Shown: positions 1-10,886, counted from the first letter of the stretch. The stretch: DNA of 64,000 nt from a virus (IMGVR_UViG_3300042554_001750); one strand, 5' to 3'. Numbers and translations are program-made. Notes: a model not told the origin generated them from the sequence alone.

Positions 1-178
1 CCATACGCAAATCAATTACCAAGCCACCGAGTTCTTCGGCGACTTCAGCAACTACCTCACTCTTACCGATGCCGGGAGGACCCCACAAGAAAACAGGACG
101 ATTGGCATTGAATGCCTTGAGAATTGCCTTGCGGGCCTGAACACTAGTGATAGTGAGATTGTCAGATACTTGAGCCAT
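1..178 (-). CDS. AAA+ ATPase (MoxR/dynein-related type), N-terminal part; runs off the window edge
   Basis: Manual translation from ATG at 178: MAQVSDNLTITSVQARKAILKAFNANRPVFLWGPPGIGKSEVV..., Walker A GPPGIGKS; GGAG RBS upstream; not in ORF track. Confidence 0.85.
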   Translation of the reverse strand, partial: MAQVSDNLTITSVQARKAILKAFNANRPVFLWGPPGIGKSEVVAEVAEELGGLVIDLRM

Positions 179-211
179 TGTTTACTCCGTTAAAAAAGTT
201 TTGATGTTTGA

Positions 212-240
212 AGTATATATCAACTAGGATTTATCGTCAA
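212..240 (-). promoter_or_regulatory. sigma70-type early promoter
   Basis: TTGACG (240-235), 17-nt spacer, TATACT (217-212), upstream of the AAA ATPase. Confidence 0.8.
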
Positions 241-244
241 CTGC

Positions 245-514
245 TTAGATTGCCCGAAAGCACTCATAGGAGCGAATTGGGCTACGATTATCGGTATGCT
301 TTTCAACATACTTGATTACAGTGCCTTTGGTAGCCAGTGTAGTTACCAAGGTAGAAAGGTCACAATCTTCCTCAAGGTATACAGTATCACCCTTTTGATA
401 ACTGAAATGAGAAATCTTGTCGGCGATGCCAAGGTCAAACAGAACCTTGCGCTTTACTGCACCCCAGCCATGGCCAGGATCAGAGTAAAATTTAATCGTA
501 AATTCTTTAGACAT
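245..514 (-). CDS. hypothetical phage early protein (89 aa)
   Basis: ORF track; FYSDPGHGW...YLEEDCD motif; co-oriented and tightly packed. Confidence 0.7.
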   Translation of the reverse strand: MSKEFTIKFYSDPGHGWGAVKRKVLFDLGIADKISHFSYQKGDTVYLEEDCDLSTLVTTLATKGTVIKYVEKHTDNRSPIRSYECFRAI

Positions 515-516
515 GA

Positions 517-783
517 TTACATGCTCCAGTAAGTTTCGCTAGCCGGGTTGCAACACCAAGGCGTATCCTCGGCGATCACAACATTCTGACCAGTCATCAG
601 GTTCTTGACGACCTTGGTACCAACCGGTCCATACTTGAGTTCGAACCAGGATTCTTCAACAAAGTTGTAAACAAACTTTCCTGCGTTACGATTACTGCAG
701 GTTGCACTACGCTTGGCACCTGCCTTGGTCTTGAAATAACGCTTATCCTGATGCGGGAATTCGGTGTGAAAAACGACAAACAT
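517..783 (-). CDS. hypothetical phage early protein (88 aa)
   Basis: ORF track; AAGGA RBS and a consensus promoter directly upstream. Confidence 0.7.
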   Translation of the reverse strand: MFVVFHTEFPHQDKRYFKTKAGAKRSATCSNRNAGKFVYNFVEESWFELKYGPVGTKVVKNLMTGQNVVIAEDTPWCCNPASETYWSM

Positions 784-815
784 TTTGAGTCCTTTATCTA
801 ACTGTCTATGTATGT

Positions 816-844
816 ATTATATACCCAAATCCATTTATTGTCAA
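816..844 (-). promoter_or_regulatory. perfect-consensus sigma70 promoter
   Basis: TTGACA (844-839), 17-nt spacer, TATAAT (821-816). Confidence 0.9.
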
Positions 845-1110
845 CCGCGGACTGTGTCGCAGTATTCAAAAAGGATCCACTTAGCACGGTTGAGCATTTG
901 ACGGACATCCTCAACGACCATAAAATCGTAGAACCCGCCGTTGTCAGAGGACAACAGTTCCTGACAATCAGACATAAGACTAGCGGCGTACATAGCAGGG
1001 CCCGAGAACCGAAAGGTCAAACTTTGCTCTACTGCCTCACGCATTTCGGCTTCAGTACAGCCATACATGCGGACTTCACGCTTTTGTTGCTCGGTCATTA
1101 TTGCGTACAT
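841..1110 (-). CDS. hypothetical phage early protein (89 aa)
   Basis: ORF track; sigma70 promoter upstream. Confidence 0.65.
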   Translation of the reverse strand: MYAIMTEQQKREVRMYGCTEAEMREAVEQSLTFRFSGPAMYAASLMSDCQELLSSDNGGFYDFMVVEDVRQMLNRAKWILFEYCDTVRG

Positions 1111-1142
1111 GTTTGCCCCGTTAGTTAACTGTCAATACATGT

Positions 1143-1171
1143 AGTATACGCCCAAATTGATTTATTGTCAA
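1143..1171 (-). promoter_or_regulatory. sigma70-type early promoter
   Basis: TTGACA (1171-1166), 17-nt spacer, TATACT (1148-1143); shares TTGACAATAAAT..TTTGGG with the 816-844 promoter. Confidence 0.85.
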
Positions 1172-1173
1172 AT

Positions 1174-1428
1174 TTAGGACATGATCTTGGCCATTAATAT
1201 GAGCTTTTCTAAATGGTCAATAGCCTTGTTGATTTCATTTACCTTGTCTAAGGTCATGTTTGATTTGGGGTTTCGCCTGGCTAGAACTTCTATTTTACTC
1301 AACTCACTAACCATTTTTTCAATATTCAGAAACATTTTATTAAGGTCAGGGTTGTACCCAATACTACGCAAATCTCGGCGTAGTTGGTCACTTACTTTTT
1401 GAAAATCAACGGCGGTTTGAATATTCAT
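1174..1428 (-). CDS. hypothetical protein (84 aa)
   Basis: ORF track; helical-looking sequence; overlaps upstream gene end. Confidence 0.6.
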   Translation of the reverse strand: MNIQTAVDFQKVSDQLRRDLRSIGYNPDLNKMFLNIEKMVSELSKIEVLARRNPKSNMTLDKVNEINKAIDHLEKLILMAKIMS

Positions 1429-1897
1429 TTAATTGACTAAGTGTTGTGGTTATATCTACATGATGTATTGCAATGCCACCTGCTTGTTGCCATTCTACAA
1501 TATTTGATTGTCTATCGTCTATTAGAATGTCACCCGTGTTGCAATGTATATGCTTATCTTTACTATAGGGTCCAAAGTGTACAGGTATGTTTGGGAAGTA
1601 AGCTTGTGCCCAAAGTACTTTGTCATAGAATGCCCAATGTACATCATTGCCCTTTGGCACTGCTGTTAAGAACATAATTTCATAATAGTTGTCTATGGCA
1701 AACTTTTGACACTTGGTAACAAGTATATCAGCATATGGTGTTTTTTGCAAGTCTCTGTATAACCGAGGATTTTGAATCAATTGATTCCAAATCTCAAAAG
1801 GATAAACGCCATTGGATGGTGGAACGCCTAATGTCTCTAGTGCGTACCTGTCAAAATCAGCAACTACCCCATCCATGTCTAAGTATAATTTTTTCAC
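1406..1897 (-). CDS. HAD-family 5'(3')-deoxyribonucleotidase-like protein
   Basis: LYLDMDGVVADF (DxD motif I), FLTA, K and ILIDDR motifs; GTG start overlaps upstream TGA. Confidence 0.8.
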   Translation of the reverse strand: MKKLYLDMDGVVADFDRYALETLGVPPSNGVYPFEIWNQLIQNPRLYRDLQKTPYADILVTKCQKFAIDNYYEIMFLTAVPKGNDVHWAFYDKVLWAQAYFPNIPVHFGPYSKDKHIHCNTGDILIDDRQSNIVEWQQAGGIAIHHVDITTTLSQLNEYSNRR

Positions 1898-2250
1898 TTT
1901 TGGCTATCTCCGGGTAGTACTCGGTAATTATCTTCAACACTATCAGGCGTGCTTACTTCAATGATTGTACCTTCTTCTAAACAAATTACCTGATGCGGTT
2001 GTAAAGGTCTATTGCGCCATGTTGCACCCTGTTCAAGTATAATGTCATGTATGCTGGCATCTTTTGTTTCAATAAAAACTATTTTAAATTTACCACTCAA
2101 TATATACCACGATTCATCTTTCTCGGCATGAAAGTGCATGCTAAACTTAGCATCTTTGTTAAACTTTAAAAGCTTACCACAATACTTTTCATTGGTAGCA
2201 AATATAAATTCATGCCCCCAACCTTTCTCAACGAATCCTTCTAGTCTCAT
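1894..2250 (-). CDS. cupin-fold protein (sugar isomerase/epimerase-like)
   Basis: SMHFHAEKDESWY and P..PHQ cupin motifs; adjacent to heptose genes. Confidence 0.75.
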   Translation of the reverse strand: MRLEGFVEKGWGHEFIFATNEKYCGKLLKFNKDAKFSMHFHAEKDESWYILSGKFKIVFIETKDASIHDIILEQGATWRNRPLQPHQVICLEEGTIIEVSTPDSVEDNYRVLPGDSQK

Positions 2251-2999
2251 TTTATTTCCTCTAATTTGGGTGCATACACGCCCAAATGTTGAACTGTTAC
2301 ACTTGCAGCTTTATTGGCAAACTCAATTGCTTTAACTATATCATTGGTTTCTAAAAACATAAACACTAACGCAGCCAAAAAAGTATCTCCGCACCCAGTA
2401 ACATCTACTACTTCAGTTTCACGGGCAGGAAACTGCACACCGTTATATGTACAACCTTTGTTTCCTTGTGTCACTATAAGTGAACTGGTTGTGCTGTTTG
2501 CTTTTGAAAATTCTGTTTCGTTTATCTTTACAACACAACCTTCAAACTCTTTGAGGTCATGTTTTTTGGTATCTATAAAAATAGGACCTAAATATTTCTT
2601 CCTGATAGATTTTACCAAATCATAAGTTACTAATCCTTTGTTGTAATCACTAACGACAACGGCATCAATGTTGTGTAAGTCTATTGAAATTTCATTTATA
2701 GTTAGTGGATCAGACTTTATATCATCGTCAACTCTAACGATATGCTGCTTGCTTTTAGCGTCAATTAATCTTATCTTAGTTGAATTACCTTTGGTCACAA
2801 AGCAAACATCTAATCCTAGCATCAATAAGTTTTCTTTTACATTTGCTGCCATGCCCGGCTTAGATATTTTTTTAGTCAGTTTGAAAACAGGCACAGGTGC
2901 TTCAGGACTAATTCTATCAACAGTACCAAAGTGGTACTCATCAATACAACTGTCACCGATTAATAATACTGTGAATTTTTTCTGTTGTTGAGTATCCAT
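2247..2999 (-). CDS. rfaE: PfkB-family kinase, heptose-7-phosphate kinase (RfaE/HldE domain I)
   Basis: GDSCIDEY..GTVDRISPEAPVPV, PGMAANV, VSDYNKG, DVTGCGDTF motifs. Confidence 0.85.
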   Translation of the reverse strand: MDTQQQKKFTVLLIGDSCIDEYHFGTVDRISPEAPVPVFKLTKKISKPGMAANVKENLLMLGLDVCFVTKGNSTKIRLIDAKSKQHIVRVDDDIKSDPLTINEISIDLHNIDAVVVSDYNKGLVTYDLVKSIRKKYLGPIFIDTKKHDLKEFEGCVVKINETEFSKANSTTSSLIVTQGNKGCTYNGVQFPARETEVVDVTGCGDTFLAALVFMFLETNDIVKAIEFANKAASVTVQHLGVYAPKLEEIK

Positions 3000-3339
3000 C
3001 TAATCTATCAAAGAAAATAATTTCCCTACAAAAATATTCACCGACAATGGGTTTTCCGATATAGTCACTACCCTTTACCATAATATCACATTGTTCTACC
3101 AATGCTATCAATTCTTGGTCCGAATCAAATATTACAACTTTGTCAACAGCTTTGAGATTTTCTAGCAGTAATTTGCGTTCGTCTTGTGAATTGATAGGTC
3201 TTGATGATCCTTTTAATTCTTTAACTCTACGATCAGAATCAATCGCTACGACCAAATTATCAGTCAAAGACTTAGCGTAATTTAATAGTGCCAAATGCCC
3301 AGAGTGTATAATATCAAAGGTGCCGTTCACTAATACCAT
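2953..3339 (-). CDS. heptose-1-phosphate nucleotidyltransferase (RfaE/HldE domain II)
   Basis: NGTFDIIHSGH (HIGH-like), VAIDSD.RVKELKGSSRPIN, VKGSDY, GYSTT. Confidence 0.85.
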   Translation of the reverse strand: MVLVNGTFDIIHSGHLALLNYAKSLTDNLVVAIDSDRRVKELKGSSRPINSQDERKLLLENLKAVDKVVIFDSDQELIALVEQCDIMVKGSDYIGKPIVGEYFCREIIFFDRLDGYSTTEKIHSIINR

Positions 3340-3347
3340 AGTAGAGG

Positions 3348-3354
3348 TATTTAT
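3348..3354 (-). promoter_or_regulatory. T4-like late promoter variant ATAAATA
   Basis: ATAAATA 9 nt upstream of the ATG at 3339; motif recurs before many genes. Confidence 0.45.
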
Positions 3355-3377
3355 TTCCGTCTCAATATAGTCGTATA

Positions 3378-4376
3378 TTACTTGATAGGGACTAAGTTGT
3401 TTTTAAATATTTCCCAAGCCTGTTGCCAACTCCATCGTTGACTTCCATTTAAAACTATCTGCCTATCCAAATGCAAACAACGCTGGATTGCAATAGATAA
3501 CTCTTGTTCCATATAGCCAGTGATACCCTCGTCAATTACATCCATTGGTCCCTGACATCTATATGCTGCCACCGGTGTACCGCATGCCATTGCTTCTATC
3601 ATAACAATACCAAATGTTTCCCATTGACTTGGAAAAACAAATACATCAGCATTAGCATAGTAATATGCCAATTCATGACCTGTTTTAAAACCTACAAATT
3701 GTATATCGGGGTATTTCTTCTTATATGTTTCCAACATTGGTCCATCCCCTACCATTATTTTATAACTGTTAGGATATTCTAATTTAAAGAAATCTTCTAG
3801 ATTTTTTTCTTTACTAACTCGGCTTACACAGACCAACAATTTAACATCGTCATTTCTATTTCTTTGAGAAGAATTAAAAACCTTTCTATCAACGCCTCTA
3901 GTCCAGCTAACAATTTCTCCATCAAATCCATGCTCACGCAGTTCATTCACCATACTGTCAGTGGTGGTCAATACTTTACCTGAATGTTTGTGAAACCATC
4001 TAACTAAAGGCCAAGTAATACTTTCAGGTATTCCAAATAACTTTCTAATTCCTTCTGGAAACTTAGTATGATAAGCAGTATTGTAGCGATAACCGTGTTT
4101 GTCAAGATATTGTCTAGCACACAAACCCACAGGACCTTCGGTGGCGATATGGATATGATCCGGAGATATCTTCTCAATCGCCTGGCCGATCTTCCTGGGA
4201 AAGGCAATCTTGACTTCGTTGTAGCCAGGGCAACCAATATAGCGGAACCTCCCGGGATCAATAAAAACAACACGATAATTGTCGTGAAGCGCCATAGCCT
4301 CAATATTTTTGTAGGTTGTAACGACACCATTTATTTGATTTGGTAAATTATCAGTTATAATCAGTATAGTTTTCAC
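3378..4376 (-). CDS. GT4 glycosyltransferase resembling Agt-type glycosyl-diacylglycerol synthases
   Basis: ITDNLPNQINGVVTT, HIHIATEGPVG, YHTKFPE, RVSKEKN, VFVFPSQWETFGIVMIEAMACGTPV; paired with LpxH/PlcP-like gene. Confidence 0.85.
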   Translation of the reverse strand: MKTILIITDNLPNQINGVVTTYKNIEAMALHDNYRVVFIDPGRFRYIGCPGYNEVKIAFPRKIGQAIEKISPDHIHIATEGPVGLCARQYLDKHGYRYNTAYHTKFPEGIRKLFGIPESITWPLVRWFHKHSGKVLTTTDSMVNELREHGFDGEIVSWTRGVDRKVFNSSQRNRNDDVKLLVCVSRVSKEKNLEDFFKLEYPNSYKIMVGDGPMLETYKKKYPDIQFVGFKTGHELAYYYANADVFVFPSQWETFGIVMIEAMACGTPVAAYRCQGPMDVIDEGITGYMEQELSIAIQRCLHLDRQIVLNGSQRWSWQQAWEIFKNNLVPIK

Positions 4377-4504
4377 TTTATAGATTCTGTATGTTTATGA
4401 TGTAGACTTTTCTTTAAAAGTTTTAACCAAGTCTTTTTTTCCCGAGCTTGATTATGCTGGACGCAAGCCTTGTAATGTTTTTTGATCAACTTTCTTACTT
4501 TCAT
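4373..4504 (-). CDS. small basic hypothetical protein (43 aa), not in ORF track
   Basis: Manual translation MKVRKLIKKHYKACVQHNQAREKKTWLKLLKKSLHHKHTESIK*; its TGA overlaps the GTG start of the GT4 (GTGA). Confidence 0.55.
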   Translation of the reverse strand: MKVRKLIKKHYKACVQHNQAREKKTWLKLLKKSLHHKHTESIK

Positions 4505-4670
4505 AACAACCTCCTTGTATCTTAAAACTATCAAACTTTAACCAGTATTCTACTGATTTTAATGCCTGTTCACACTCCGTCTGTGTCTGAAATTTTATCA
4601 CTGCTTTGCCCGGCACGTCGGCGGGATTGTTTATGTGTACTGCTATCAAAATTAGTAACCACATTGTCAC
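4452..4670 (-). CDS. small hypothetical protein with hydrophobic N-terminus
   Basis: ORF track; GGAGAG RBS; MWLLILIAVH N-terminus; two Cys. Confidence 0.55.
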   Translation of the reverse strand: MTMWLLILIAVHINNPADVPGKAVIKFQTQTECEQALKSVEYWLKFDSFKIQGGCYESKKVDQKTLQGLRPA

Positions 4671-5418
4671 TCTCCTTAGTCCAAATTACGATTTCCCAGT
4701 GGCCATCGTGGTGTTCAACCAATGCAGTCATAGATTCTACCCAGTCGCCATCATTCATATAAACAATGCCATCAATTTCTTTTATTTCAGCATGATGAAT
4801 GTGCCCACAGATCACACCATCAAAACCACGCTTCTTACAATAAGCAACTAAATTTTTTTCAAACTGAAATATAAAGTCAACAGCCTTTTTCACTCGCTGT
4901 TTCAAATATTGACTCAAACTCCAATAACCAAATCCAAATTTATGACGCCACCAATTGAACTTGTTGTTTAACCATAATACCACATCGTATGCTTTGTCAC
5001 CTAAAAATGCTAACCACGGCGCTAATCTAGTAATTCCATCAAATAAATCTCCGTGTATTACAAGATAATGTTTGCCATCTACACCTATGTGTTCAGTTTG
5101 GTTGGTTACTTCAACATTACCAAAGCCGATATTATAAGGCATGAGTGGTCGTAAAAATTCATCATGATTGCCTGCCACATAAATCACGCGAGTACCACGT
5201 TTAGCATGACCTAATATTCGTCTGACAACATTAGTATGGCTTTGCTTCCAGCGCCATTTGTTTTGCTGTATACGCCAAACATCCAAAATATCACCCACTA
5301 AGTACAATGTTTCACAAGTGTTGTGCTTGAGAAAATTATTTAGTTGTTCGGCTTTACTATCTCTAGTGCCTAAATGAACATCACTGACAAAAATGGCGCG
5401 ATAAGTCTTTGGTGTCAT
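4570..5418 (-). CDS. LpxH-family metallophosphoesterase, PlcP-like phospholipase C
   Basis: SDVHLG, LVGDILD, GNHDEFLR, HGDLFD, GVICGHIHH, YMNDGDWVES motifs, plus the LGDKAYD...YWSLS..K.RVKKAV insertion typical of the PlcP-like group. Confidence 0.8.
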   Translation of the reverse strand: MTPKTYRAIFVSDVHLGTRDSKAEQLNNFLKHNTCETLYLVGDILDVWRIQQNKWRWKQSHTNVVRRILGHAKRGTRVIYVAGNHDEFLRPLMPYNIGFGNVEVTNQTEHIGVDGKHYLVIHGDLFDGITRLAPWLAFLGDKAYDVVLWLNNKFNWWRHKFGFGYWSLSQYLKQRVKKAVDFIFQFEKNLVAYCKKRGFDGVICGHIHHAEIKEIDGIVYMNDGDWVESMTALVEHHDGHWEIVIWTKESDNVVTNFDSSTHKQSRRRAGQSSDKISDTDGV

Positions 5419-5423
5419 ACGAA

Positions 5424-5430
5424 TATTTAT
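5424..5430 (-). promoter_or_regulatory. T4-like late promoter variant ATAAATA
   Basis: GATAAATAT 6 nt upstream of the ATG at 5418. Confidence 0.45.
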
Positions 5431-5456
5431 CGTGTTATTAATTACAAACCTATTAT

Positions 5457-5478
5457 AAAAAAAGGCCCTTTCGGGCCT
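5457..5478 (-). terminator. rho-independent terminator after pstS
   Basis: AGGCCC-GAAA-GGGCCT followed by a run of T on the minus strand. Confidence 0.85.
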
Positions 5479-5520
5479 GCTGGTTACGGATATCCAGCAC
5501 CACCTTATCTTGTGGTCGGT

Positions 5521-6510
5521 TTATTTAATTTTACTTATTTCTTTTTCTACTAACGCTACAACACTGTCTGGTAGAGGAACATAATCAAGTTCTTCTGCCA
5601 TCTTATCGCCCTTAGCAAAAGCCCATCTAAAGAATTTTAATGCTTCTTGTGCTTCTTGTGGTTTGTCATTCTTTAGATACATGATGATGAATGTGGCACC
5701 TGTAACAGGCCATGCAGTCCTGCCAGGTTGATCAGTTAATACTTGGAAAAATGTTTTTTCCCATGTAGCATTTGCTGCCGCAGCCTTGAATGTTAAATCA
5801 TCAGGAGCTACCCACTGACCATCTTTATTCTGCATCTGCACCCAATTCATTTTAGTTTGTTTGACATAAGCATACTCAACATAACCTAGTGCACCGGGTA
5901 GTTGACGAACCATAGCACTAACGCCCTCATTACCCTTGCCACCTACACCAACTTTCCAGTTAACAGCAGTACCTTCTCCAATTGTTTCTTTAAATTCGCT
6001 ATTAACTTTGCTTAGATAGTTTGTCCATAAGAATGTCGTGCCGCTACCATCTGCACGACGAACTACAGCAATATCTTGATTGGGTAGTTTTAATGATGGA
6101 TTAAGGTTTGCAATAGCAGGATCATCCCACTTTTTAATCTTACCTAAATAGATATCTGCAATTACTTGTCCGGTGAGTTTCATTTCGCCAGGCTTGACTT
6201 CTTTCAGATTAATGACAGGTACTACTCCACCAATTACTGTAGGGAACTGTGTTGCACCCATGCTAGATAATTTGTCGTCTTTTAATGGCATATCACTTGC
6301 ACCGAACGCTACTGTCTTGGCTTCAATTTGTCTTATGCCTGCACCTGATCCTACACTTTGATAATTTAATCTAATACCAGTTTCTTTATTATAGGCATCT
6401 GCCCACTTAGCATAAAGCGGAGCCGGGAATGTTGCCCCGGCTCCATTAATTGTCTGTGCGTGTGCCGTGAATGATACGGCTGCTAATACCATAGCAATTA
6501 TTTTGTTCAT
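5521..6510 (-). CDS. pstS: phosphate ABC transporter periplasmic binding protein PstS
   Basis: Signal peptide (..TAHA/Q), GAGATFPAPLY, YQSVGSGAG, FGASDMPL, RADGSGTT, GKGNEGV, YVEY. Confidence 0.95.
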   Translation of the reverse strand: MNKIIAMVLAAVSFTAHAQTINGAGATFPAPLYAKWADAYNKETGIRLNYQSVGSGAGIRQIEAKTVAFGASDMPLKDDKLSSMGATQFPTVIGGVVPVINLKEVKPGEMKLTGQVIADIYLGKIKKWDDPAIANLNPSLKLPNQDIAVVRRADGSGTTFLWTNYLSKVNSEFKETIGEGTAVNWKVGVGGKGNEGVSAMVRQLPGALGYVEYAYVKQTKMNWVQMQNKDGQWVAPDDLTFKAAAANATWEKTFFQVLTDQPGRTAWPVTGATFIIMYLKNDKPQEAQEALKFFRWAFAKGDKMAEELDYVPLPDSVVALVEKEISKIK

Positions 6511-6554
6511 ACTTGTCTCCTTGTGTGTTGAACAACTGTATTTACAAAAAAAGT

Positions 6555-6593
6555 GTTAAGAAATTATGACAAAATTGTGACAGTTTATGACAA
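6555..6593 (-). promoter_or_regulatory. Pho box (PhoB-binding direct repeats) upstream of pstS
   Basis: Minus strand TTGTCAT-AAA-CTGTCAC-AATT-TTGTCAT-AATT-TCTTAAC; matches CTGTCAT-N4-CTGTCA(C/T). Confidence 0.8.
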
Positions 6594-6616
6594 AAGGGGC
6601 CAATGGCCCCTTTTGT
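6590..6616 (-). terminator. symmetric rho-independent terminator after the porin gene
   Basis: ACAAAAGGGGCC-ATT-GGCCCCTTTTGT perfect 12-bp inverted repeat; T-tract overlaps the first Pho half-site. Confidence 0.85.
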
Positions 6617-6634
6617 ATTTTGGCAAAGATAAAA

Positions 6635-7546
6635 TTAAAACTTGTGTGTTACACCAACACCAAATCCACTAGTACCATTGGCTGCAGGACAGCCAATAGC
6701 TAAACAACTTACAGCACTTCTATCAACATTGCGATATACAACATGCAAAGCAGTACGCTTGCTTAAATTGTAATCAGCACCAACATTGTAAGCAGTTGTG
6801 TCTGTATTTGTACGGCCATAACTTGCCTTTGCAGTGATATGACCCATATCACGTGCTACACCAAGCGTTTGACCTTTGCTAGTTACTAGACCTTCGTTGT
6901 CGCTGTATACATACGCTACTGTAGTTCCCATCAATTTAGTTTGAGCACCGAATACTGTGCTCTTTTCTGTTCCTTGTTGGAAACGTGCAACATCAACATG
7001 TAATCTTGCGATTTTAGTTGAGCCGGCAAAAACTTCAGCGTCTGCGCCAGGACCATTTAGTGTACGCTCATACGCAACTACAGAACCCTTAACAGGAACC
7101 ATTGTAGCATATACAGCATCTGCTAAACGCAATCCGCGTAGATTGTGTACATCACCTGCAACACTACCATACAATGTTCCGAAAACATCATTTTTAGTGA
7201 TTGCTAAGAAGTGGCTGTGTACATTGCGACCTAAGTCAACACTACCAAACTTATTGGCAAGACCGACTGTTGCTTGACGATCACCAACTCTAGTATCATC
7301 ACCTCCAAAGGTGTTACCCTTCAATGATGTTTCTACAGTGGCTCGGGCAAACAAATCACGGCCCATTTTTTCTTTAACTGATAGTGCAAAGTTGCTGGTT
7401 GGTTCAGTAACAAGTTGAGTACTGGTAGAACCATTACCAACTTTAGAGTTATCAACAAATGCGCTGACTTTTCCGTTTATTGTTACCTGAGCACTAGCAA
7501 CTGAAACTAGCCCCATCAATAAAGTTGCCATTATAATTTTCTTCAT
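6635..7546 (-). CDS. outer-membrane porin (Gram-negative/Burkholderiales-type)
   Basis: Signal peptide (..VASA/Q), VTINGKV start, DRQATVGL..KFGSVDLGR, GADYNLSKRTAL, C-terminal VGVTHKF beta-signal. Confidence 0.85.
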   Translation of the reverse strand: MKKIIMATLLMGLVSVASAQVTINGKVSAFVDNSKVGNGSTSTQLVTEPTSNFALSVKEKMGRDLFARATVETSLKGNTFGGDDTRVGDRQATVGLANKFGSVDLGRNVHSHFLAITKNDVFGTLYGSVAGDVHNLRGLRLADAVYATMVPVKGSVVAYERTLNGPGADAEVFAGSTKIARLHVDVARFQQGTEKSTVFGAQTKLMGTTVAYVYSDNEGLVTSKGQTLGVARDMGHITAKASYGRTNTDTTAYNVGADYNLSKRTALHVVYRNVDRSAVSCLAIGCPAANGTSGFGVGVTHKF

Positions 7547-7568
7547 GCTTTTTTCCTTATGTAAAAAT

Positions 7569-7588
7569 GCCTGTTAAATTTAACAGGC
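7569..7588. promoter_or_regulatory. perfect 20-bp palindrome in the porin leader
   Basis: GCCTGTTAAATTTAACAGGC is its own reverse complement; lies between ATAAATA (7597-7603) and the RBS. Confidence 0.6.
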
Positions 7589-7596
7589 TAGATTAA

Positions 7597-7603
7597 TATT
7601 TAT
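7597..7603 (-). promoter_or_regulatory. T4-like late promoter variant ATAAATA
   Basis: CAATAAATATT about 50 nt upstream of the porin ATG. Confidence 0.4.
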
Positions 7604-7691
7604 TGAGACAAAAAAATCCAAATACTTTTATAGTTTACACCAAGTATCTTACTATTATGCGTAATAAGTGCTTTTAGTTTATGGTTATATA

Positions 7692-8537
7692 TTACGGAAG
7701 TTTGTTTATGATATATTTAAAATTATTGCAACCAAATTTTTCTTCTAGTGGATATCTGAGCAATAGGTCATAGGGTCTTTTACTGGGTTTGTTTGAATAT
7801 TTAAGTTTGAGTCTATTTGAAATTTTATAGGCGTACTGGTCGTAAAAGTCTTTTACCCGTTCAAAACCTGTATATTTAGTGATTTGCGGTATAATCGGAA
7901 TTCCAACTGATTGCAATGATATTATCTTTTTGTTATATTGATTTGTTTCCTTATGATACTCGCTTGACAAATTCTGAGAAAGTTCATATATATTACTATA
8001 AGCAATTTCAGGCGTTTGTGATAAAAAGTAAGGAACAGTTGAGCGTTGTAAACTAGCATTATACAAACAAATGTTGTTATACCCAATAACTGCTTTAGCT
8101 TTGGTCAATCTATCCCCGCTAAAAATTACAGTTCCGTCCAGATGTTCAGTCATACCCAAGTGAGCACCAAAGTGCGGACTAGTTATTTTGTAAACGTCTG
8201 CCAGTCTGAAATATTCGTGTTCATAAAAACCTAGTAAATCAAAATCCAGATACTGGACTTCCATGTTTTCTCTGGCTGAAAAAACATCTAATGTTTCTAA
8301 ATCATGAGAGTTTAAATCTGTGTTATATCGGACGCTGGTGGGTATATAGTTTTTACCAAACCATTTCCAGGCTAATAAAACAGTTTGGCTATCTACACCA
8401 CCAGTGACCATTAAATGGTATGGTGGTTTATAATTAGCCATTATCTGCTTGACTGTTAACTCAAGCGCATCAATGGTGTTTGTATAGTTTACAGGAGTTG
8501 TAAAGTCTATAGTATCACTTGAAACTTTAAACCACAT
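7692..8537 (-). CDS. asparagine-synthetase/PP-loop-like adenine nucleotide alpha-hydrolase family protein
   Basis: LMVTGGVDSQ resembles the SGGxDS PP-loop; IFSGD downstream; remainder unrecognised. Confidence 0.5.
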   Translation of the reverse strand: MWFKVSSDTIDFTTPVNYTNTIDALELTVKQIMANYKPPYHLMVTGGVDSQTVLLAWKWFGKNYIPTSVRYNTDLNSHDLETLDVFSARENMEVQYLDFDLLGFYEHEYFRLADVYKITSPHFGAHLGMTEHLDGTVIFSGDRLTKAKAVIGYNNICLYNASLQRSTVPYFLSQTPEIAYSNIYELSQNLSSEYHKETNQYNKKIISLQSVGIPIIPQITKYTGFERVKDFYDQYAYKISNRLKLKYSNKPSKRPYDLLLRYPLEEKFGCNNFKYIINKLP

Positions 8538-8541
8538 TGTA

Positions 8542-10185
8542 TCAGAAACAACTACATCTGCCTTTCAATTCACAGCCAGGATCAAAATATATAGTACAGC
8601 CTCCGCCGACGCAGTTGTCAAAGCACCCGTCTAGAGTCTCACAAGGATCTAATGAACACTGGATAGATTGTAATTTAATGTTTAGAATAGGATCATTTTG
8701 TGCTAATGTGCTTAAATCAATACCGGAACGATAAGTCACGATTTCTAAATCATAATCTTGCAATGTTCCATTTCTGAATGTAGCTCTCAATGGTATTTTG
8801 ACATATTCGTAATCACTGGTATTGCTTGTAATTGCGGGTACAACTCCGTAAAGTTTTCCAGAAGAAGTTATTTTTAATCCTGCTGGCAAATCAATGTCAT
8901 ATTCAAATTTCTCTACTACTGAAGGAGAAAATATATTCAATATGTGAGGTTGACCTTCTTCAGCTTTTGTAAAAAGTGAATATGATAAGGTGCTTGATTG
9001 AAATTCTGAGTAGATTGAAGTTATTTTATTAACACTGCCTGCATATTTTGGATCAGTTAAATCCAACATATCTTGGCGGCTCAGTGATCCGCTGCTCATA
9101 TAGTAATTAGGAGATATTACTCCAATTAACTCAGGAAAATGCCATGTCATGTTATACGCCAATGCAGCCGAATGTAATGCTGCTGCAATACTAGTACCCG
9201 AAGCATTTCCTGTTGTGCCGCCTGGAATCGCTACAAAAATGTCTTTTCCAGGAGCCCATCCATCTAAAGCACCGTGATTAGTGTCGCCATTCGTTAATGA
9301 GATTGCGCTACTTCCGGTATAATTAGAGAATGAGCATGGTCTGAAATCACTGTCATATGCTCCTATTGTCAATACGTCATTCATTGAAGCAGGAGTAGCA
9401 TTATCTATAGGCATTCCACTGTTTCCGGCTGCGCAAACAAATAGTATACCAGCATCTATCATCTGCTGTATTTTGTTTTCAATTAGTAAATTTTTATCAA
9501 TGGTCCAGCTACAGTTAACAATAGCGCCATTGTTACTAGAATTTAGAAAATTTGTAACGAAATCATCAAAAATCGCATCTAATGCAGAAAGCAGGTCACT
9601 TTGCTTGGTAGCAACACCACTCTGGAAGATTTTTACTCCCTTAACTTTGGCATTAGTAATACCGCATGTGCGGCCGGCTATAACGCTAGCAATAGCAGTA
9701 CCGTGACCATTTGTGTCATTGTTGCTAGATGTATCGTTGACAAAGCTCCAAAGATTTGTTACATCACTGCCAACAAAATCCGGATGTGTAGTATCTATTC
9801 CACTGTCTAATACATATACTGTACTATTAGCACCTCTGCGATCTATTCTCGTAATAGGTTCTTCTAAATTGATATTGGCCAATGAATAGGCTTTCCACCA
9901 GTTTCGGTCTAGTGTATTATCAAATTCTAAAATGTCACCTGTTAAGGTATTTTTTCCGTATGTTTCATCTAAAATAACCACATGAGAATGCAAACTTACC
10001 GGATTATCTTCATCAGCAACTAAGTGTTCAACAATGTCAGCCATCGTCGGTATGGCTGTAGTTTCTACTAAATAGATACCCTCAAATCTATTAAAAACTT
10101 TGATTATAGTTGCAGAAATAGATTCTAAATAGTGATTTATTTCTTCTTGAGTAACGTTGGCTTTAAAGTCAATTATATATTTCAT
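8542..10185 (-). CDS. subtilisin-like S8 serine protease with prodomain, Ig-like segment and Cys-rich C-terminal tail
   Basis: Triad motifs VLDSG, NGHGTAIAS, SGTSIAA; oxyanion CAAGN; LPAGLKITSSGKLYG (He_PIG-like); tail with 8 Cys; no signal peptide. Confidence 0.88.
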   Translation of the reverse strand: MKYIIDFKANVTQEEINHYLESISATIIKVFNRFEGIYLVETTAIPTMADIVEHLVADEDNPVSLHSHVVILDETYGKNTLTGDILEFDNTLDRNWWKAYSLANINLEEPITRIDRRGANSTVYVLDSGIDTTHPDFVGSDVTNLWSFVNDTSSNNDTNGHGTAIASVIAGRTCGITNAKVKGVKIFQSGVATKQSDLLSALDAIFDDFVTNFLNSSNNGAIVNCSWTIDKNLLIENKIQQMIDAGILFVCAAGNSGMPIDNATPASMNDVLTIGAYDSDFRPCSFSNYTGSSAISLTNGDTNHGALDGWAPGKDIFVAIPGGTTGNASGTSIAAALHSAALAYNMTWHFPELIGVISPNYYMSSGSLSRQDMLDLTDPKYAGSVNKITSIYSEFQSSTLSYSLFTKAEEGQPHILNIFSPSVVEKFEYDIDLPAGLKITSSGKLYGVVPAITSNTSDYEYVKIPLRATFRNGTLQDYDLEIVTYRSGIDLSTLAQNDPILNIKLQSIQCSLDPCETLDGCFDNCVGGGCTIYFDPGCELKGRCSCF

Positions 10186-10205
10186 CTGGATGTCCTCACT
10201 ATTAT

Positions 10206-10460
10206 TTAGTCTAGATTTTCTGTTTTATCCGAATTCACGACTGCAATCGGTAACCACTTTTTTTGTGGGCAGGAAACACTAGGTATATAAGTTTTCACGG
10301 GCATATAACAACCGCAAAGTTTGCAAAAATCAGTAGAATGAAACTGGTCACAAGTCTTGCAAATTTCCAAACGTTGATTTCTTTGTTCTTCGGGCAGTTT
10401 TATATTATCAACAACAGTTTGTGCGGTTTGTGCGAGTTTTTGCTTTAACTTTTCTAGCAT
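10206..10460 (-). CDS. small Cys-rich putative metal-binding protein (DUF6171-like)
   Basis: RLEICKTC...CKLCGCYMPVK...SCPQKKW pattern. Confidence 0.7.
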   Translation of the reverse strand: MLEKLKQKLAQTAQTVVDNIKLPEEQRNQRLEICKTCDQFHSTDFCKLCGCYMPVKTYIPSVSCPQKKWLPIAVVNSDKTENLD

Positions 10461-10480
10461 CGTTGATCCTCTATTATATG

Positions 10481-10488
10481 TATTTATA
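10481..10488 (-). promoter_or_regulatory. T4 late promoter consensus TATAAATA
   Basis: Exact TATAAATA 21 nt upstream of the ATG at 10460; AGAGGA RBS follows. Confidence 0.65.
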
Positions 10489-10532
10489 GTATTAGTAAAT
10501 GTAGATTTTTATATGATCATGACCATCAGTTT

Positions 10533-10560
10533 AAAAAAAGGAGGCTTAAGCCCCCTTTTT
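10533..10560 (-). terminator. rho-independent terminator after the tmRNA coding piece
   Basis: AAAAAGGGGGC-TTAA-GCCTCCTTTTTTT. Confidence 0.8.
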
Positions 10561-10721
10561 GGTTAGTTTGGTAACAAGGTCTTTCCTACCCCGTCTCAAG
10601 CTCAAGCGGCTAGAGCAAATACCTCATCGTTTGCAGGTATAAGTTTTGCTTGATTTACGGTCATCGCCTACCGTGCTGTCCACTCTGTTACTCTTTGCCC
10701 TGTCGAAACCATGACTGGCCC
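10561..10721 (-). ncRNA. ssrA: tmRNA coding piece (permuted, two-piece tmRNA); tag ANDEVFALAA at 10634-10602
   Basis: Begins GGGCCAGTCATGGTTTCGACAGGG; pk1-like CACGGTAGGCGATGACCGT; resume codon GCA and tag ANDEVFALAA-TGA; 3' end approximate. Confidence 0.9.
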
Positions 10722-10722
10722 A

Positions 10723-10797
10723 TCATAAAAGGACTATAGCAAAAACTACTAAAACTACAGTTATACCAAACAACCATTTTACTACTTCGTCGTTCAT
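10723..10797 (-). CDS. 24-aa hydrophobic peptide inside the tmRNA intervening segment
   Basis: AAAGGGA then ATG: MNDEVVKWLFGITVVLVVFAIVLL*; fills the spacer and stops 1 nt before tmRNA G1. Confidence 0.5.
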   Translation of the reverse strand: MNDEVVKWLFGITVVLVVFAIVLL

Positions 10798-10809
10798 ATA
10801 ATCCCTTTA

Positions 10810-10872
10810 TGGTGGACCAGGCGGGAGTCGAACCCGCGTCCAGAACACTTTTCTCTTTGCTTCATACAGCAA
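10810..10872 (-). ncRNA. ssrA: tmRNA acceptor piece (T-arm, acceptor strand, encoded CCA)
   Basis: GCGGG-TTCGACT-CCCGC T-arm then CTGGTCC-A-CCA; pairs with GGGCCAG giving G3:U70; TGTTCTG pairs with CAGGGCA; 5' end approximate. Confidence 0.9.
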
Positions 10873-10886
10873 TAATCTTTATGTTA

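What the first reader, a model, noticed from the sequence alone, without database searches (positions are those of the whole stretch)
3378..7546. Phage phosphate-starvation module: porin, PstS, PlcP-like phospholipase and Agt-like glycosyltransferase
Seen: four co-oriented genes (porin, pstS with a Pho box, LpxH-family metallophosphoesterase, GT4) inside an otherwise clearly phage genome. Established: in Sinorhizobium, Agrobacterium and SAR11 a PhoB-controlled PlcP phospholipase C plus a GT4 (Agt) replaces phospholipids with glucosyl/glucuronosyl-diacylglycerols under P limitation. Inference: this phage both imports phosphate (porin + PstS) and mines it from the host membrane to supply genome replication. 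Phage pstS is well known; I do not know a description of the full import-plus-lipid-remodelling cassette in a phage, but cannot verify novelty.
Basis: partly seen in the sequence, partly recalled or inferred. Interest (0 to 1): 0.88.

Follow-up and report, generated by a model that had tools for sequence, protein, structure and literature searches.

The report
Phage phosphate-starvation lipid-remodelling genes
A very large lake-water phage carries bacterial-type genes for a phosphate-binding protein and for the enzyme pair that swaps phosphate-containing membrane lipids for sugar lipids, so it can probably free host membrane phosphorus during infection; virus surveys have been filing the key gene as the cell-wall gene lpxH.

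Summary

The phosphoesterase is not LpxH. It fails the LpxH models and sits in a tree inside the paralogue clade. In 51 of 80 bacterial loci that paralogue is followed directly by a homologue of this GT4, which is the published plcP-agt operon. The pair recurs in many related phage contigs.

Pho-box-like repeats are nearly confined to the upstream regions of the phosphoesterase and pstS genes in relatives. In this window the phosphoesterase's own box has decayed.

Three caveats apply:
- The four genes are a mosaic, not a fixed cassette. Of 80 relatives, 31 have the GT4, 15 pstS and 2 the porin.
- The porin is an old resident of this phage clade, has no Pho box and is not a phosphate-specific type.
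- The GT4 has Glu where Agt has its essential Asp.

Independent lake metagenomes hold the stretch, so it is not contamination. I found no paper describing phage plcP-agt. This scan has noted the same module in other phage genomes. All enzyme functions are inferred.

The parts
6635..7546 (-). Porin with signal peptide. It is a 16-stranded general porin of betaproteobacterial type. It is a neighbour of the module, and a role in phosphate uptake is doubtful.
   Evidence: Pfam Porin_4, E 2.7e-22. The AlphaFold model (pLDDT 76) best matches Omp32, BpsOmp38 and PorB, with TM 0.7-0.8. Homologues at 52-93% identity lie in phage contigs without pstS or plcP. In 100 Burkholderiales genomes the best scores are only 27-34 bits.
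6539..6592 (-). Pho-box array and a -10-like motif. Half-sites are TGTCAT (6592-6587), TGTCAC (6582-6577) and TGTCAT (6571-6566), then a degenerate fourth, then TAAATA (6544-6539).
   Evidence: These are the only matches to the tandem pattern in 64 kb, against 0.19 expected. The same kind of site lies 59-82 nt before pstS in 12 of 15 relatives.
5521..6510 (-). pstS: periplasmic phosphate-binding protein with signal peptide.
   Evidence: NF008171, 437.7 bits against a cut-off of 339. PHROG 5385, phosphate transporter subunit. Up to 65% identity to Burkholiales PstS. Only 51-56% identity to PstS of sister phages.
5475..5522 (-). Conserved two-hairpin RNA-like element. It starts on the pstS stop codon and runs into the terminator at 5478-5463.
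   Evidence: Fold z-score -4.25. Across 27 copies 97.4% of cells are paired and 5 pairs covary. The covariance model finds one copy in the window and 35 gene-strand copies in relatives, mostly at the edges of pstS, MPE and GT4. No Rfam match.
5424..5446 (-). Decayed Pho-box remnant (TGTAAT, 5446-5441, then TAACAC) followed by GATAAATA (5431-5424), ahead of the phosphoesterase gene.
   Evidence: Read from the sequence and compared with the intact TGTAAY-N5-TGTAAY repeats at the same place in relatives.
4570..5418 (-). PlcP-like metallophosphoesterase: a predicted phospholipase C acting on membrane phospholipids. It has no signal peptide.
   Evidence: All metal-binding motifs are intact. LpxH models are not met. 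It sits inside the PlcP-type clade, split from LpxH with 100% support. The model has an LpxH-like core plus a helical lid.
4452..4664 (-). sORF1: a small phage-specific gene that overlaps the 3' end of the phosphoesterase gene. It is 53-57 aa in relatives and has two conserved Cys. In this window it is extended at the C-terminus.
   Evidence: Present in 56 of 80 viral loci, with or without the GT4. Absent from 80 bacterial loci.
3378..4376 (-). Agt-like GT4 glycosyltransferase: a predicted diacylglycerol glycosyltransferase. It has Glu in place of the Agt catalytic Asp.
   Evidence: 36-44% identity to the GT4 directly downstream of bacterial plcP. The viral clade lies inside the Agt-like group relative to WaaG and WaaB. 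Motifs: SRVSKEKN, FPSQWETFG, YHTKFPE, WTRGVD.

Best explanation
The region is part of a variable island of host-derived genes in a very large freshwater phage, probably of a betaproteobacterium. It holds two phosphate-starvation units.

Unit 1 is pstS behind a PhoB-type Pho box. When the host is starved of phosphate, host PhoB switches it on, and the secreted protein feeds the host PstCAB importer.

Unit 2 is a PlcP-like metallophosphoesterase, a small overlapping phage-specific gene, and an Agt-like GT4. The phosphoesterase cuts the phosphate head group off membrane phospholipids and leaves diacylglycerol. The GT4 caps diacylglycerol with a sugar from a UDP-sugar, so the membrane holds until lysis. 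The released phosphate esters enter the host pool used for phage DNA.

Shown here: family placement, synteny, Pho-box placement and presence in nature.
Inferred: every enzyme activity, PhoB control, and the benefit to the phage.

The neighbouring porin is a separate, older phage gene. Its link to phosphate is only positional.
For: **The phosphoesterase is PlcP-type, not LpxH**
- It scores 48 bits on the LpxH equivalog, against a cut-off of 134.
- Pseudomonas, Paraburkholderia, Limnohabitans and Chromobacterium genomes each have a true LpxH elsewhere (219-333 bits). Their homologue of this protein scores 37-57 bits.
- In the tree LpxH splits off with 100% support. The window protein lies in a viral clade (97%) inside the bacterial paralogue clade.
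- 53 of 81 genomes sampled from the order that holds Bradyrhizobium have a homologue at 46-54% identity. No true LpxH was found in the one Bradyrhizobium genome tested.
- Characterised PlcPs are themselves only 46-47% identical to one another (PMC8528852).

**The partner GT4 is Agt-like**
- In 51 of 80 bacterial loci a homologue of this GT4 lies directly downstream, with a median gap of 67 nt. This is the 'type 2' plcP-agt arrangement of PMC4796936.
- Those bacterial neighbours carry the published Agt motifs GRVAxEKN and FPSxTDTFG (bioRxiv 10.1101/2021.03.25.437072).
- The pair is kept in phage contigs whose flanking genes differ.

**Phosphate control**
- In 1.07 Mb of related viral loci, 46 of 53 gene-strand matches to TGT[AC]A[CT]-N4-5-TGT[AC]A[CT] lie within 150 nt upstream of the phosphoesterase gene (34 of 80 loci, mostly 32-55 nt before the start) or of pstS (12 of 15 loci, 59-82 nt).

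**The stretch is real phage DNA**
- It is held by 20 lake and freshwater metagenome runs of 20 studies.
- Contigs from four of those runs cover positions 1-12000 at even depth. Error-free pieces bridge porin to pstS and porin to the upstream phage genes.

**Host clues**
- A betaproteobacterial-type tmRNA.
- PstS up to 65% identical to Burkholiales PstS.
Against: - No activity, transcript or lipid has been measured.
- I could not align the proteins directly with the characterised enzymes (SMc00171, MED193_17359, PB7211_983, PA3219, Atu2297, PB7211_960). Family placement rests on unnamed orthologues, published motifs and synteny.
- In this window the phosphoesterase gene's own Pho box is reduced to one half-site. 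A terminator separates it from pstS.
- The window's GT4 subclade has FPSxWETFG. The D256E change cut the activity of the SAR11 enzyme by more than 90%.
- The GT4 is absent from 49 of 80 related loci, so the phosphoesterase does not depend on it.
- Heptose-nucleotide genes follow the GT4 without a terminator.
- The gain is modest. Remodelling freed about 0.3-0.9 million P atoms per cell in two marine bacteria (PMC4796936). A genome of 340-513 kb needs about 0.7-1.0 million.
Confidence: 0.68

Rival explanations
1. Envelope remodelling for reasons other than phosphorus. The phosphoesterase, GT4, porin and the adjacent heptose-nucleotide genes together change the host surface or membrane. The purpose would be to block superinfection, to alter receptors or to time lysis. 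Phosphate release would be a side effect.
For: - The island also holds a porin and split rfaE-type genes.
- The pelagimyophage literature reads such glycosyltransferase and rfaE genes as surface modification against co-infection (PMC7029224).
- The phosphoesterase gene in this window has lost its Pho box and is preceded by a late-promoter-like GATAAATA.
- The GT4 differs from Agt at the catalytic Asp.
Against: - In relatives, Pho-box-like repeats sit at a fixed distance before the phosphoesterase gene in 34 of 80 loci, and pstS is a frequent direct neighbour.
- The GT4 follows the phosphoesterase gene or sORF1 directly, whereas rfaE genes are near it in only 5 of 80 loci.
- The proteins lack signal peptides and group with the cytoplasmic PlcP and Agt families.
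Confidence: 0.14
2. The GT4 belongs to the heptose pathway encoded just downstream. It would transfer a sugar to a glycan, a protein or DNA rather than to diacylglycerol. The phosphoesterase would act alone.
For: - rfaE domain II and domain I genes, a cupin and a HAD phosphatase follow the GT4 with no terminator between them.
- The phosphoesterase gene occurs without the GT4 in 49 of 80 relatives.
- The Glu-for-Asp change may signal another specificity.
Against: - The GT4 is 36-44% identical over its full length to the GT4 next to bacterial plcP. It shares their His and their Thr-Arg and Trp positions.
- Heptosyltransferases are GT9, not GT4 (established knowledge).
- In other phage contigs the GT4 follows the phosphoesterase gene with no rfaE nearby.
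- Earlier-branching viral GT4s keep the Asp.
Confidence: 0.1
3. The phosphoesterase is a true LpxH (lipid A synthesis), as databases annotate it.
For: - JGI names its homologues LpxH.
- LpxH is the only solved fold it resembles, with TM about 0.5-0.6.
- The Mosig homologue is annotated as UDP-2,3-diacylglucosamine hydrolase.
Against: - It scores below both LpxH equivalog cut-offs.
- E. coli LpxH finds none of about 120 family members at E 1e-10, only the true LpxH genes.
- It is separated from LpxH by a 100%-supported long branch.
- Four of the five bacterial genomes tested carry this paralogue alongside a true LpxH.
Confidence: 0.03
4. The segment is host DNA wrongly joined to a phage contig.
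For: PstS is up to 65% identical to bacterial PstS.
Against: - No genome found by the GTDB scan has a phosphoesterase above 58% identity, while hundreds of viral contigs have 74-88%.
- The same backbone (S8 peptidase ... AAA/DUF2201 ... ThyA) flanks the island in independent contigs.
- GC content is even across the region.
- Independent runs cover the junctions at the same depth as the flanks.
Confidence: 0.01

Closest known systems
Bacterial PlcP-Agt lipid renovation pathway (S. meliloti SMc00171; Phaeobacter MED193_17359; SAR11 HTCC7211 PB7211_983/960; P. aeruginosa PA3219/PA3218; A. tumefaciens Atu2297). Sources: PMC4796936, PMC8528852, bioRxiv 10.1101/2021.03.25.437072.
   Same: - An LpxH-like Mn-type phosphoesterase is followed directly by a GT4 of the Agt group.
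- Pho-box repeats lie upstream in many phage relatives.
- Identity levels match those seen between characterised members: 47-58% for the phosphoesterase and 36-44% for the GT4.
   Different: - It is encoded by a phage.
- A small phage-only gene overlaps the end of the phosphoesterase gene.
- The GT4 subclade has Glu for the catalytic Asp, and SRVSKEKN for GRVAxEKN.
- The Pho box before the phosphoesterase gene has decayed in this window.
- The pair is a movable cassette, often found without the GT4.
Pelagibacter phage Mosig EXVC030M (MT647606), genes Mosig_00120 and Mosig_00119.
   Same: A cultured T4-like phage with a homologue of the phosphoesterase (48% identity) next to pstS.
   Different: - The two genes are divergently oriented.
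- There is no Agt-like GT4.
- The gene is annotated as UDP-2,3-diacylglucosamine hydrolase.
- The host is marine SAR11.
- The pelagimyophage paper does not mention pstS or phospholipids.
Cyanophage pstS and phoA auxiliary genes under host PhoBR control (own knowledge: Sullivan et al. 2010; Zeng and Chisholm 2012).
   Same: A phage pstS behind a host-type Pho box. The logic is that of a phosphate-starvation auxiliary gene.
   Different: - Here the PstS is of the E. coli / Burkholiales type.
- The Pho box is of the TGTCA type.
- A lipid-remodelling pair travels with it.
True LpxH (UDP-2,3-diacylglucosamine diphosphatase).
   Same: A calcineurin-like core with a helical lipid-binding lid. It is the best structural match.
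   Different: - The window protein fails the equivalog models.
- It lies in a separate clade.
- In four of the five bacterial genomes tested, its homologue coexists with a true LpxH as a paralogue.
Anion-selective porin Omp32 (Delftia acidovorans), BpsOmp38 and Neisseria PorB. Also phage-borne porins such as Lc of phage PA-2 (own knowledge).
   Same: A predicted 16-stranded barrel with an internal loop 3.
   Different: - About 20% identity to these porins.
- Shorter, with a mature length of about 283 aa.
- It forms a phage-clade-specific family.
- It is not OprP/OprO or PhoE.
- No Pho box lies upstream.

Membership tests
PlcP (phosphate-starvation phospholipase C of the LpxH-like metallophosphoesterases) | Calcineurin-like phosphoesterase with an intact set of metal-binding motifs | tested here: met
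   D13, H15, D43, N84, H85, H122, H206 and H208 are invariant in a 25-sequence alignment. Pfam Metallophos hit.
PlcP (phosphate-starvation phospholipase C of the LpxH-like metallophosphoesterases) | Distinct from true LpxH | tested here: met
   48 and 36 bits against cut-offs of 134 and 190. The paralogue relation is shown in four genomes. The split has 100% support.
PlcP (phosphate-starvation phospholipase C of the LpxH-like metallophosphoesterases) | Strong similarity to a characterised PlcP (Sebastian et al.: BLASTP E below 1e-40 to MED193_17359) | not testable with these tools
   The characterised sequences could not be fetched. Proxies: 46-58% identity and 233-301 bits to the homologues found in 53 of 81 genomes of the order that holds Bradyrhizobium, and to the non-LpxH paralogue of Pseudomonas.
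PlcP (phosphate-starvation phospholipase C of the LpxH-like metallophosphoesterases) | A gene for a phosphorus-free lipid (agt in the type 2 arrangement) directly downstream | tested here: met
   The GT4 lies 194 nt downstream, with sORF1 between. The same pair is found in 51 of 80 bacterial loci and 31 of 80 viral loci.
PlcP (phosphate-starvation phospholipase C of the LpxH-like metallophosphoesterases) | Pho box in the promoter | tested here: inconclusive
   The window has only one half-site, TGTAAT. 34 of 80 relatives have a tandem site within 150 nt of the start, mostly 32-55 nt before it.
PlcP (phosphate-starvation phospholipase C of the LpxH-like metallophosphoesterases) | Mn-dependent hydrolysis of PE, PG or PC to diacylglycerol | not testable with these tools
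   Needs an enzyme assay or complementation.
Agt / GTcp clade of GT4 (diacylglycerol glucosyl/glucuronosyl transferase) | GT-B fold GT4 that groups with the plcP-linked enzymes rather than with other GT4s | tested here: met
   Pfam GT4 N- and C-terminal domains. 36-44% identity to plcP neighbours, against under 25% to other GT4s as stated in the paper. One clade relative to WaaG and WaaB, 99% support. No NCBIfam model is met, and bacterial neighbours give the same hit profile.
Agt / GTcp clade of GT4 (diacylglycerol glucosyl/glucuronosyl transferase) | UDP-sugar motifs GRVAxEKN and FPSxTDTFG, with the catalytic Asp (Asp256 of GTcp) | tested here: not met
   The window has SRVSKEKN and FPSQWETFG, that is, Glu for Asp. 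Bacterial neighbours mostly have the published motifs. An earlier-branching viral subclade keeps Asp.
Agt / GTcp clade of GT4 (diacylglycerol glucosyl/glucuronosyl transferase) | Catalytic His and the diacylglycerol-binding Thr-Arg and Trp (His104, Thr162, Arg163, Trp320 of GTcp) | tested here: met
   YHTKFPE (H103), WTRGVD (T159, R160) and RWSWQQAW are conserved in the alignment with Agt-motif neighbours. Equivalence to the GTcp numbering is inferred from the motifs, not from a direct alignment.
Agt / GTcp clade of GT4 (diacylglycerol glucosyl/glucuronosyl transferase) | Forms glycosyl-diacylglycerol from a UDP-sugar and diacylglycerol | not testable with these tools
   Needs expression and lipid analysis.
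LpxH (UDP-2,3-diacylglucosamine diphosphatase) | Score above the curated equivalog cut-off | tested here: not met
   NF003743: 48.1 bits against 134. TIGR01854: 35.7 bits against 190.35.
PstS (phosphate ABC transporter substrate-binding protein) | Score above the curated equivalog cut-off, and an export signal | tested here: met
   NF008171: 437.7 bits against 339. TIGR00975: 400.7 bits against 205. The N-terminus MNKIIAMVLAAVSFTAHA-Q was read.
Phosphate-selective porins (OprP/OprO, Pfam Porin_O_P; PhoE) | Family model hit, or phosphate-starvation control | tested here: not met
   Only Porin_4 and a weak Porin_1 hit. No Pho-box-like tandem in the 64 kb other than before pstS. Best folds are Omp32, BpsOmp38 and PorB.

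The most novel reading that the evidence does not exclude
A widespread clade of giant lake phages runs its own PhoB-triggered membrane-lipid renovation. The machinery is a PlcP-type phospholipase C working with a phage-only small partner protein (sORF1) and a diverged Agt, in which Trp-Glu replaces Thr-Asp, that makes a glycolipid different from the host's. The phosphate cassettes are moved between phages as units marked by a conserved two-hairpin RNA element. On this reading, infection measurably shifts lake lipid and phosphorus budgets, and the 'viral lpxH' counts in virus surveys are really this gene.
Probability: 0.2. Interest if true: 0.85.

Novelty: new variant of a known kind. Interest (0 to 1): 0.72.

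Why it matters
Phosphate-starvation genes of phages (pstS, phoA, phoH) are a textbook case of viral auxiliary metabolism. Membrane phospholipids, a large cellular phosphorus store, have not been part of that picture.

If the pair works as in bacteria, large phages can convert host membrane phosphorus into roughly one extra genome's worth of nucleotides while keeping the cell intact. That would make infection a driver of the phospholipid-to-glycolipid shift that is used as a field marker of phosphorus stress.

The gene is common. At least 472 IMG/VR stretches encode it, and thousands of metagenome proteins are 76% or more identical to it.

It is currently counted as the lipopolysaccharide gene lpxH in virus surveys (PMC9611531, PMC10653327). 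Existing tables of auxiliary genes therefore probably misassign it.

The claim is directly testable with a plcP mutant and lipidomics.

Tried and rejected
- **Complex prediction.** Phosphoesterase (residues 1-256) with sORF1 (1-58) scored 0.12, below the mark. This gives no verdict either way.
- **RNA runs.** No RNA holder was listed for the 5.7-kb stretch or for the phosphoesterase-sORF1 stretch. This says nothing on expression.
- **Named references.** Searches of genomes reached through loci return no organism names, so I could not pick out Sinorhizobium, Agrobacterium or Pelagibacter orthologues.
- **Solved structures.** A PDB sequence search found only P. aeruginosa LpxH at 24-27 bits. There is no solved PlcP.
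- **Literature.** Searches for PlcP with phage, virus or AMG, for lpxH with pstS and phage, for phage-encoded porin, and for virus-encoded lipid remodelling found no description of a phage plcP-agt pair.
- **sORF2 (4373-4534).** It has no homologue in any related locus and is treated as not a gene.
- **Rfam.** The pstS-downstream element has no match at E up to 5.
- **Co-orientation as evidence.** Rejected, because the whole window is transcribed from one strand.
- **NCBIfam top hit for the GT4.** The GlcN-phosphatidylglycerol synthase model scores 66 bits against a cut-off of 480. Bona fide plcP-linked bacterial GT4s give the same weak hit (68-84 bits), so it does not discriminate.

Full report
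**What is there**

The window is the minus strand of an IMG/VR virus record of 88,986 bases, which CheckV rates 17% complete. Every ORF of 100 aa or more that looks like a gene lies on the minus strand, so co-orientation says nothing.

In order of transcription, the region holds:
- a terminator-like hairpin (7588-7569);
- a porin gene (7546-6635);
- a hairpin (6610-6596);
- three TGTCAY half-sites at 10-11 nt spacing (6592-6566), a degenerate fourth, and TAAATA;
- pstS (6510-5521);
- a structured element and a terminator (5522-5463);
- the metallophosphoesterase gene (5418-4570);
- a small overlapping gene, sORF1 (4664-4452);
- the GT4 gene (4376-3378);
- with no terminator in between, split rfaE domain II and domain I genes, a cupin and a HAD phosphatase.

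The tandem Pho pattern occurs nowhere else in the 64 kb, against 0.19 expected by chance.

**The phosphoesterase is PlcP-type, not LpxH**

- All metallophosphoesterase motifs are intact.
- The two LpxH equivalog models give 48 and 36 bits, against cut-offs of 134 and 190.
- A scan of one genome per species found homologues of 47-58% identity in Alpha-, Beta- and Gammaproteobacteria.
- In Pseudomonas graminis, Paraburkholderia nodosa, Limnohabitans DCL3 and Chromobacterium haemolyticum a true LpxH (219-333 bits) lies elsewhere in the genome. The homologue of the window protein scores only 37-57 bits on the LpxH model. In a Bradyrhizobium genome only the latter kind was found.
- E. coli LpxH finds the true LpxH genes and none of the roughly 120 family members at E 1e-10.
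- In a maximum-likelihood tree of 78 proteins, LpxH is split off with 100% support. The window protein lies in a viral clade (97%) nested in the bacterial paralogue clade, next to a Pseudomonas and gammaproteobacterial group (95%).
- 53 of 81 genomes sampled from the order that holds Bradyrhizobium have a homologue at 46-54% identity.
- The characterised PlcPs are 46-47% identical to one another (PMC8528852), so the window protein lies within the family's known spread.
- The predicted structure (pLDDT 81) has the LpxH-like core and a helical lid at about residues 128-196. Its 25 best solved matches are all LpxH, with TM about 0.5-0.6. There is no solved PlcP.
- The tail from residue 250 is disordered in the model. 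It is the part that overlaps sORF1.

I could not fetch the characterised PlcP sequences themselves, so that one membership criterion is untested.

**The GT4 is Agt-like, with one notable departure**

In 55 of the 80 bacterial loci a homologue of the window's GT4 (36-44% identity over the full length) lies within the 4-kb flank. In 51 it is directly downstream on the same strand, with a median gap of 67 nt. This is the 'type 2' plcP-agt arrangement that Sebastian et al. call the most common (PMC4796936).

These bacterial neighbours carry the two motifs published for the SAR11 enzyme GTcp and for Agt, namely GRVAxEKN and FPSxTDTFG. The phage enzymes share several conserved blocks with them:
- NGVV;
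- ATEGPxG;
- YHT[KR]FPE, which holds the catalytic His;
- W[TS]RGVD, which holds the Thr-Arg that binds diacylglycerol;
- the C-terminal Trp block.

The window's subclade, however, reads SRVSKEKN and FPSxWETFG. Glu stands where GTcp has Asp256. The D256E change cost that enzyme more than 90% of its activity.

In a tree rooted with E. coli WaaG and WaaB, the viral GT4s are one clade (100%) within the Agt-like group. An earlier-branching viral subclade keeps Asp, and the Limnohabitans enzyme also has Glu. No NCBIfam model is met, and bona fide bacterial neighbours give the same weak hit profile.

I therefore file the GT4 as a diverged relative of Agt, not as a proven member.

**The pair in phages, and the mosaic**

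The phosphoesterase has thousands of metagenomic homologues at 76-93% identity. At least 472 stretches in IMG/VR encode it, on contigs up to 360 kb. These close homologues are therefore a phage lineage.

In a 513-kb contig and in 26-76-kb contigs from other lakes, the phosphoesterase and GT4 genes are adjacent while the flanking genes differ.

Of the 80 closest viral loci:

| Gene | Loci that have it |
|---|---|
| sORF1 | 56 |
| GT4 | 31 |
| pstS | 15 |
| Porin | 2 |
| rfaE-type genes | 5 |

The core unit is thus the phosphoesterase gene plus sORF1. The GT4 and pstS are frequent companions. The four-gene set of this window is one combination among many.

The window's PstS is 51-56% identical to that of sister phages but up to 65% identical to Burkholiales PstS. 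This suggests a separate acquisition.

In GenBank phages, homologues of the phosphoesterase occur only in:
- Pelagibacter phage Mosig (48% identity, next to pstS, annotated as UDP-2,3-diacylglucosamine hydrolase);
- Synechococcus phage S-SRM01 (36%);
- one unverified fragment;
- one weak hit (25%) in an uncultured 595-kb phage.

None has an Agt-like GT4.

**Control**

With the pattern TGT[AC]A[CT]-N4-5-TGT[AC]A[CT], the 1.07 Mb of related viral loci hold 53 sites on the gene strand and 7 on the other strand. Of the 53, 46 lie within 150 nt upstream of one of two genes:
- the phosphoesterase gene, in 34 of 80 loci, mostly 32-55 nt before the start;
- pstS, in 12 of 15 loci, 59-82 nt before the start.

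The strict TGTCA form occurs 7 times on the gene strand, always in those positions. A TAAATA motif follows.

This is the layout of PhoB-activated promoters, whose consensus is CTGTCATNNNNCTGTCAT (PMC8528852). It argues that both units answer to host phosphate starvation.

In this window the box before the phosphoesterase gene has lost about four bases and keeps one half-site. Here the gene may depend on read-through or on a phage promoter.

**The porin**

The porin has a signal peptide. Its model is a 16-stranded barrel (pLDDT 76) that is closest to Omp32, BpsOmp38 and PorB.

Its homologues (52-93% identity) lie in related phage contigs at the same place, between an S8 peptidase and an AAA/DUF2201 pair, without pstS or the lipid genes. 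It has only 27-34-bit matches in 100 Burkholiales genomes.

It has no Pho box and belongs to no phosphate-specific porin family. Its link to phosphate is positional only.

**Not an artefact**

GC content is even across the region. Twenty lake and freshwater metagenome runs of 20 studies hold at least half of the sampled words of the 5.7-kb stretch.

Contigs of four of those runs, none flagged as a possible source, cover positions 1-12000 at even depth. Error-free pieces bridge the rfaE genes to the GT4, pstS to the porin, and the porin to the S8 peptidase gene.

**Host**

Three clues point to a freshwater betaproteobacterium:
- a betaproteobacterial-type permuted tmRNA at 10534-10922;
- the PstS affinities;
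- the porin fold.

**Scale**

Sebastian et al. measured 0.54 and 2.63 million phospholipid P atoms per cell in two marine bacteria. About 0.27 and 0.9 million of these were freed by remodelling. A double-stranded genome of 340-513 kb holds about 0.7-1.0 million P atoms. The gain is therefore of the order of one genome copy. This is an inference, and it is modest but not trivial for a phage of this size.

**Literature and earlier notes**

I found no paper that describes a phage plcP-agt pair. Two virus surveys list lpxH among lipopolysaccharide auxiliary genes.

This scan has already noted the same module in other phage genomes. Those notes are AI notes. I retested their main claims here on this window.

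**Verdict**

The finding is a phage-borne variant of a known bacterial pathway. It is well founded by comparative evidence and wholly untested at the bench.

Noticed in passing
window 5475-5522 (- strand); L006:9481-9528 and 11738-11785; 35 further copies in L135-L214: A conserved, strand-specific two-hairpin element that begins on the stop codon of the upstream gene. The first stem covaries. The second is GCUGG / CCAGC around the loop AnYYCGUAA.

- One copy lies in the 64-kb window, between pstS and the phosphoesterase gene.
- In relatives, 20 of 35 copies abut the pstS end, the GT4 end or the phosphoesterase start.
- In L006, two copies bracket the phosphoesterase-sORF1-GT4 cassette.
- It has no Rfam match and is absent from bacterial plcP loci.

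It may be an mRNA processing or stabilising site, or a marker of movable cassettes.
   Followed up: partly
window 4452-4664 (- strand): sORF1 is a small gene of 53-57 aa in relatives (70 aa here, because the usual stop is lost). It has a hydrophobic start, MW(L/I)LIL(I/L)AVH, and two conserved Cys. It overlaps the last 95 nt or so of the phosphoesterase gene in another frame. It is present in 56 of 80 viral loci, with or without the GT4, and in none of 80 bacterial loci. Its function is unknown.
   Followed up: partly
window 10534-10922 (- strand): A phage-encoded permuted tmRNA of the betaproteobacterial type (RF01850 at 138 bits, RF04321 at 137 bits). I used it here only as a clue to the host.
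   Followed up: no
window 1406-3339 (- strand): Directly after the GT4 lie split rfaE genes (an adenylyltransferase of 128 aa that overlaps a shortened 250-aa kinase), a cupin (PHROG 7851) and a HAD/NT5C-type phosphatase. This looks like a heptose-nucleotide pathway with no GT9 transferase nearby. These genes recur in the island of some relatives.
   Followed up: partly
window 39488-58984 and 10887-16544 (- strand): Two very long ORFs, of 6498 aa and 1885 aa. I did not examine them.
   Followed up: no
window 4373-4534 (- strand): In relatives sORF1 ends right at the GT4 start. This window has about 80 extra bases there, which hold a basic 43-53-aa ORF with no homologue in any related locus. 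It is probably an insertion remnant, not a gene.
   Followed up: partly
L001 (Pelagibacter phage Mosig, MT647606, record 94129-94866): The gene annotated 'putative UDP-2,3-diacylglucosamine hydrolase' in this cultured SAR11 phage belongs to the PlcP-type clade (48% identity to the window protein) and lies beside pstS. The annotation is probably wrong.
   Followed up: partly
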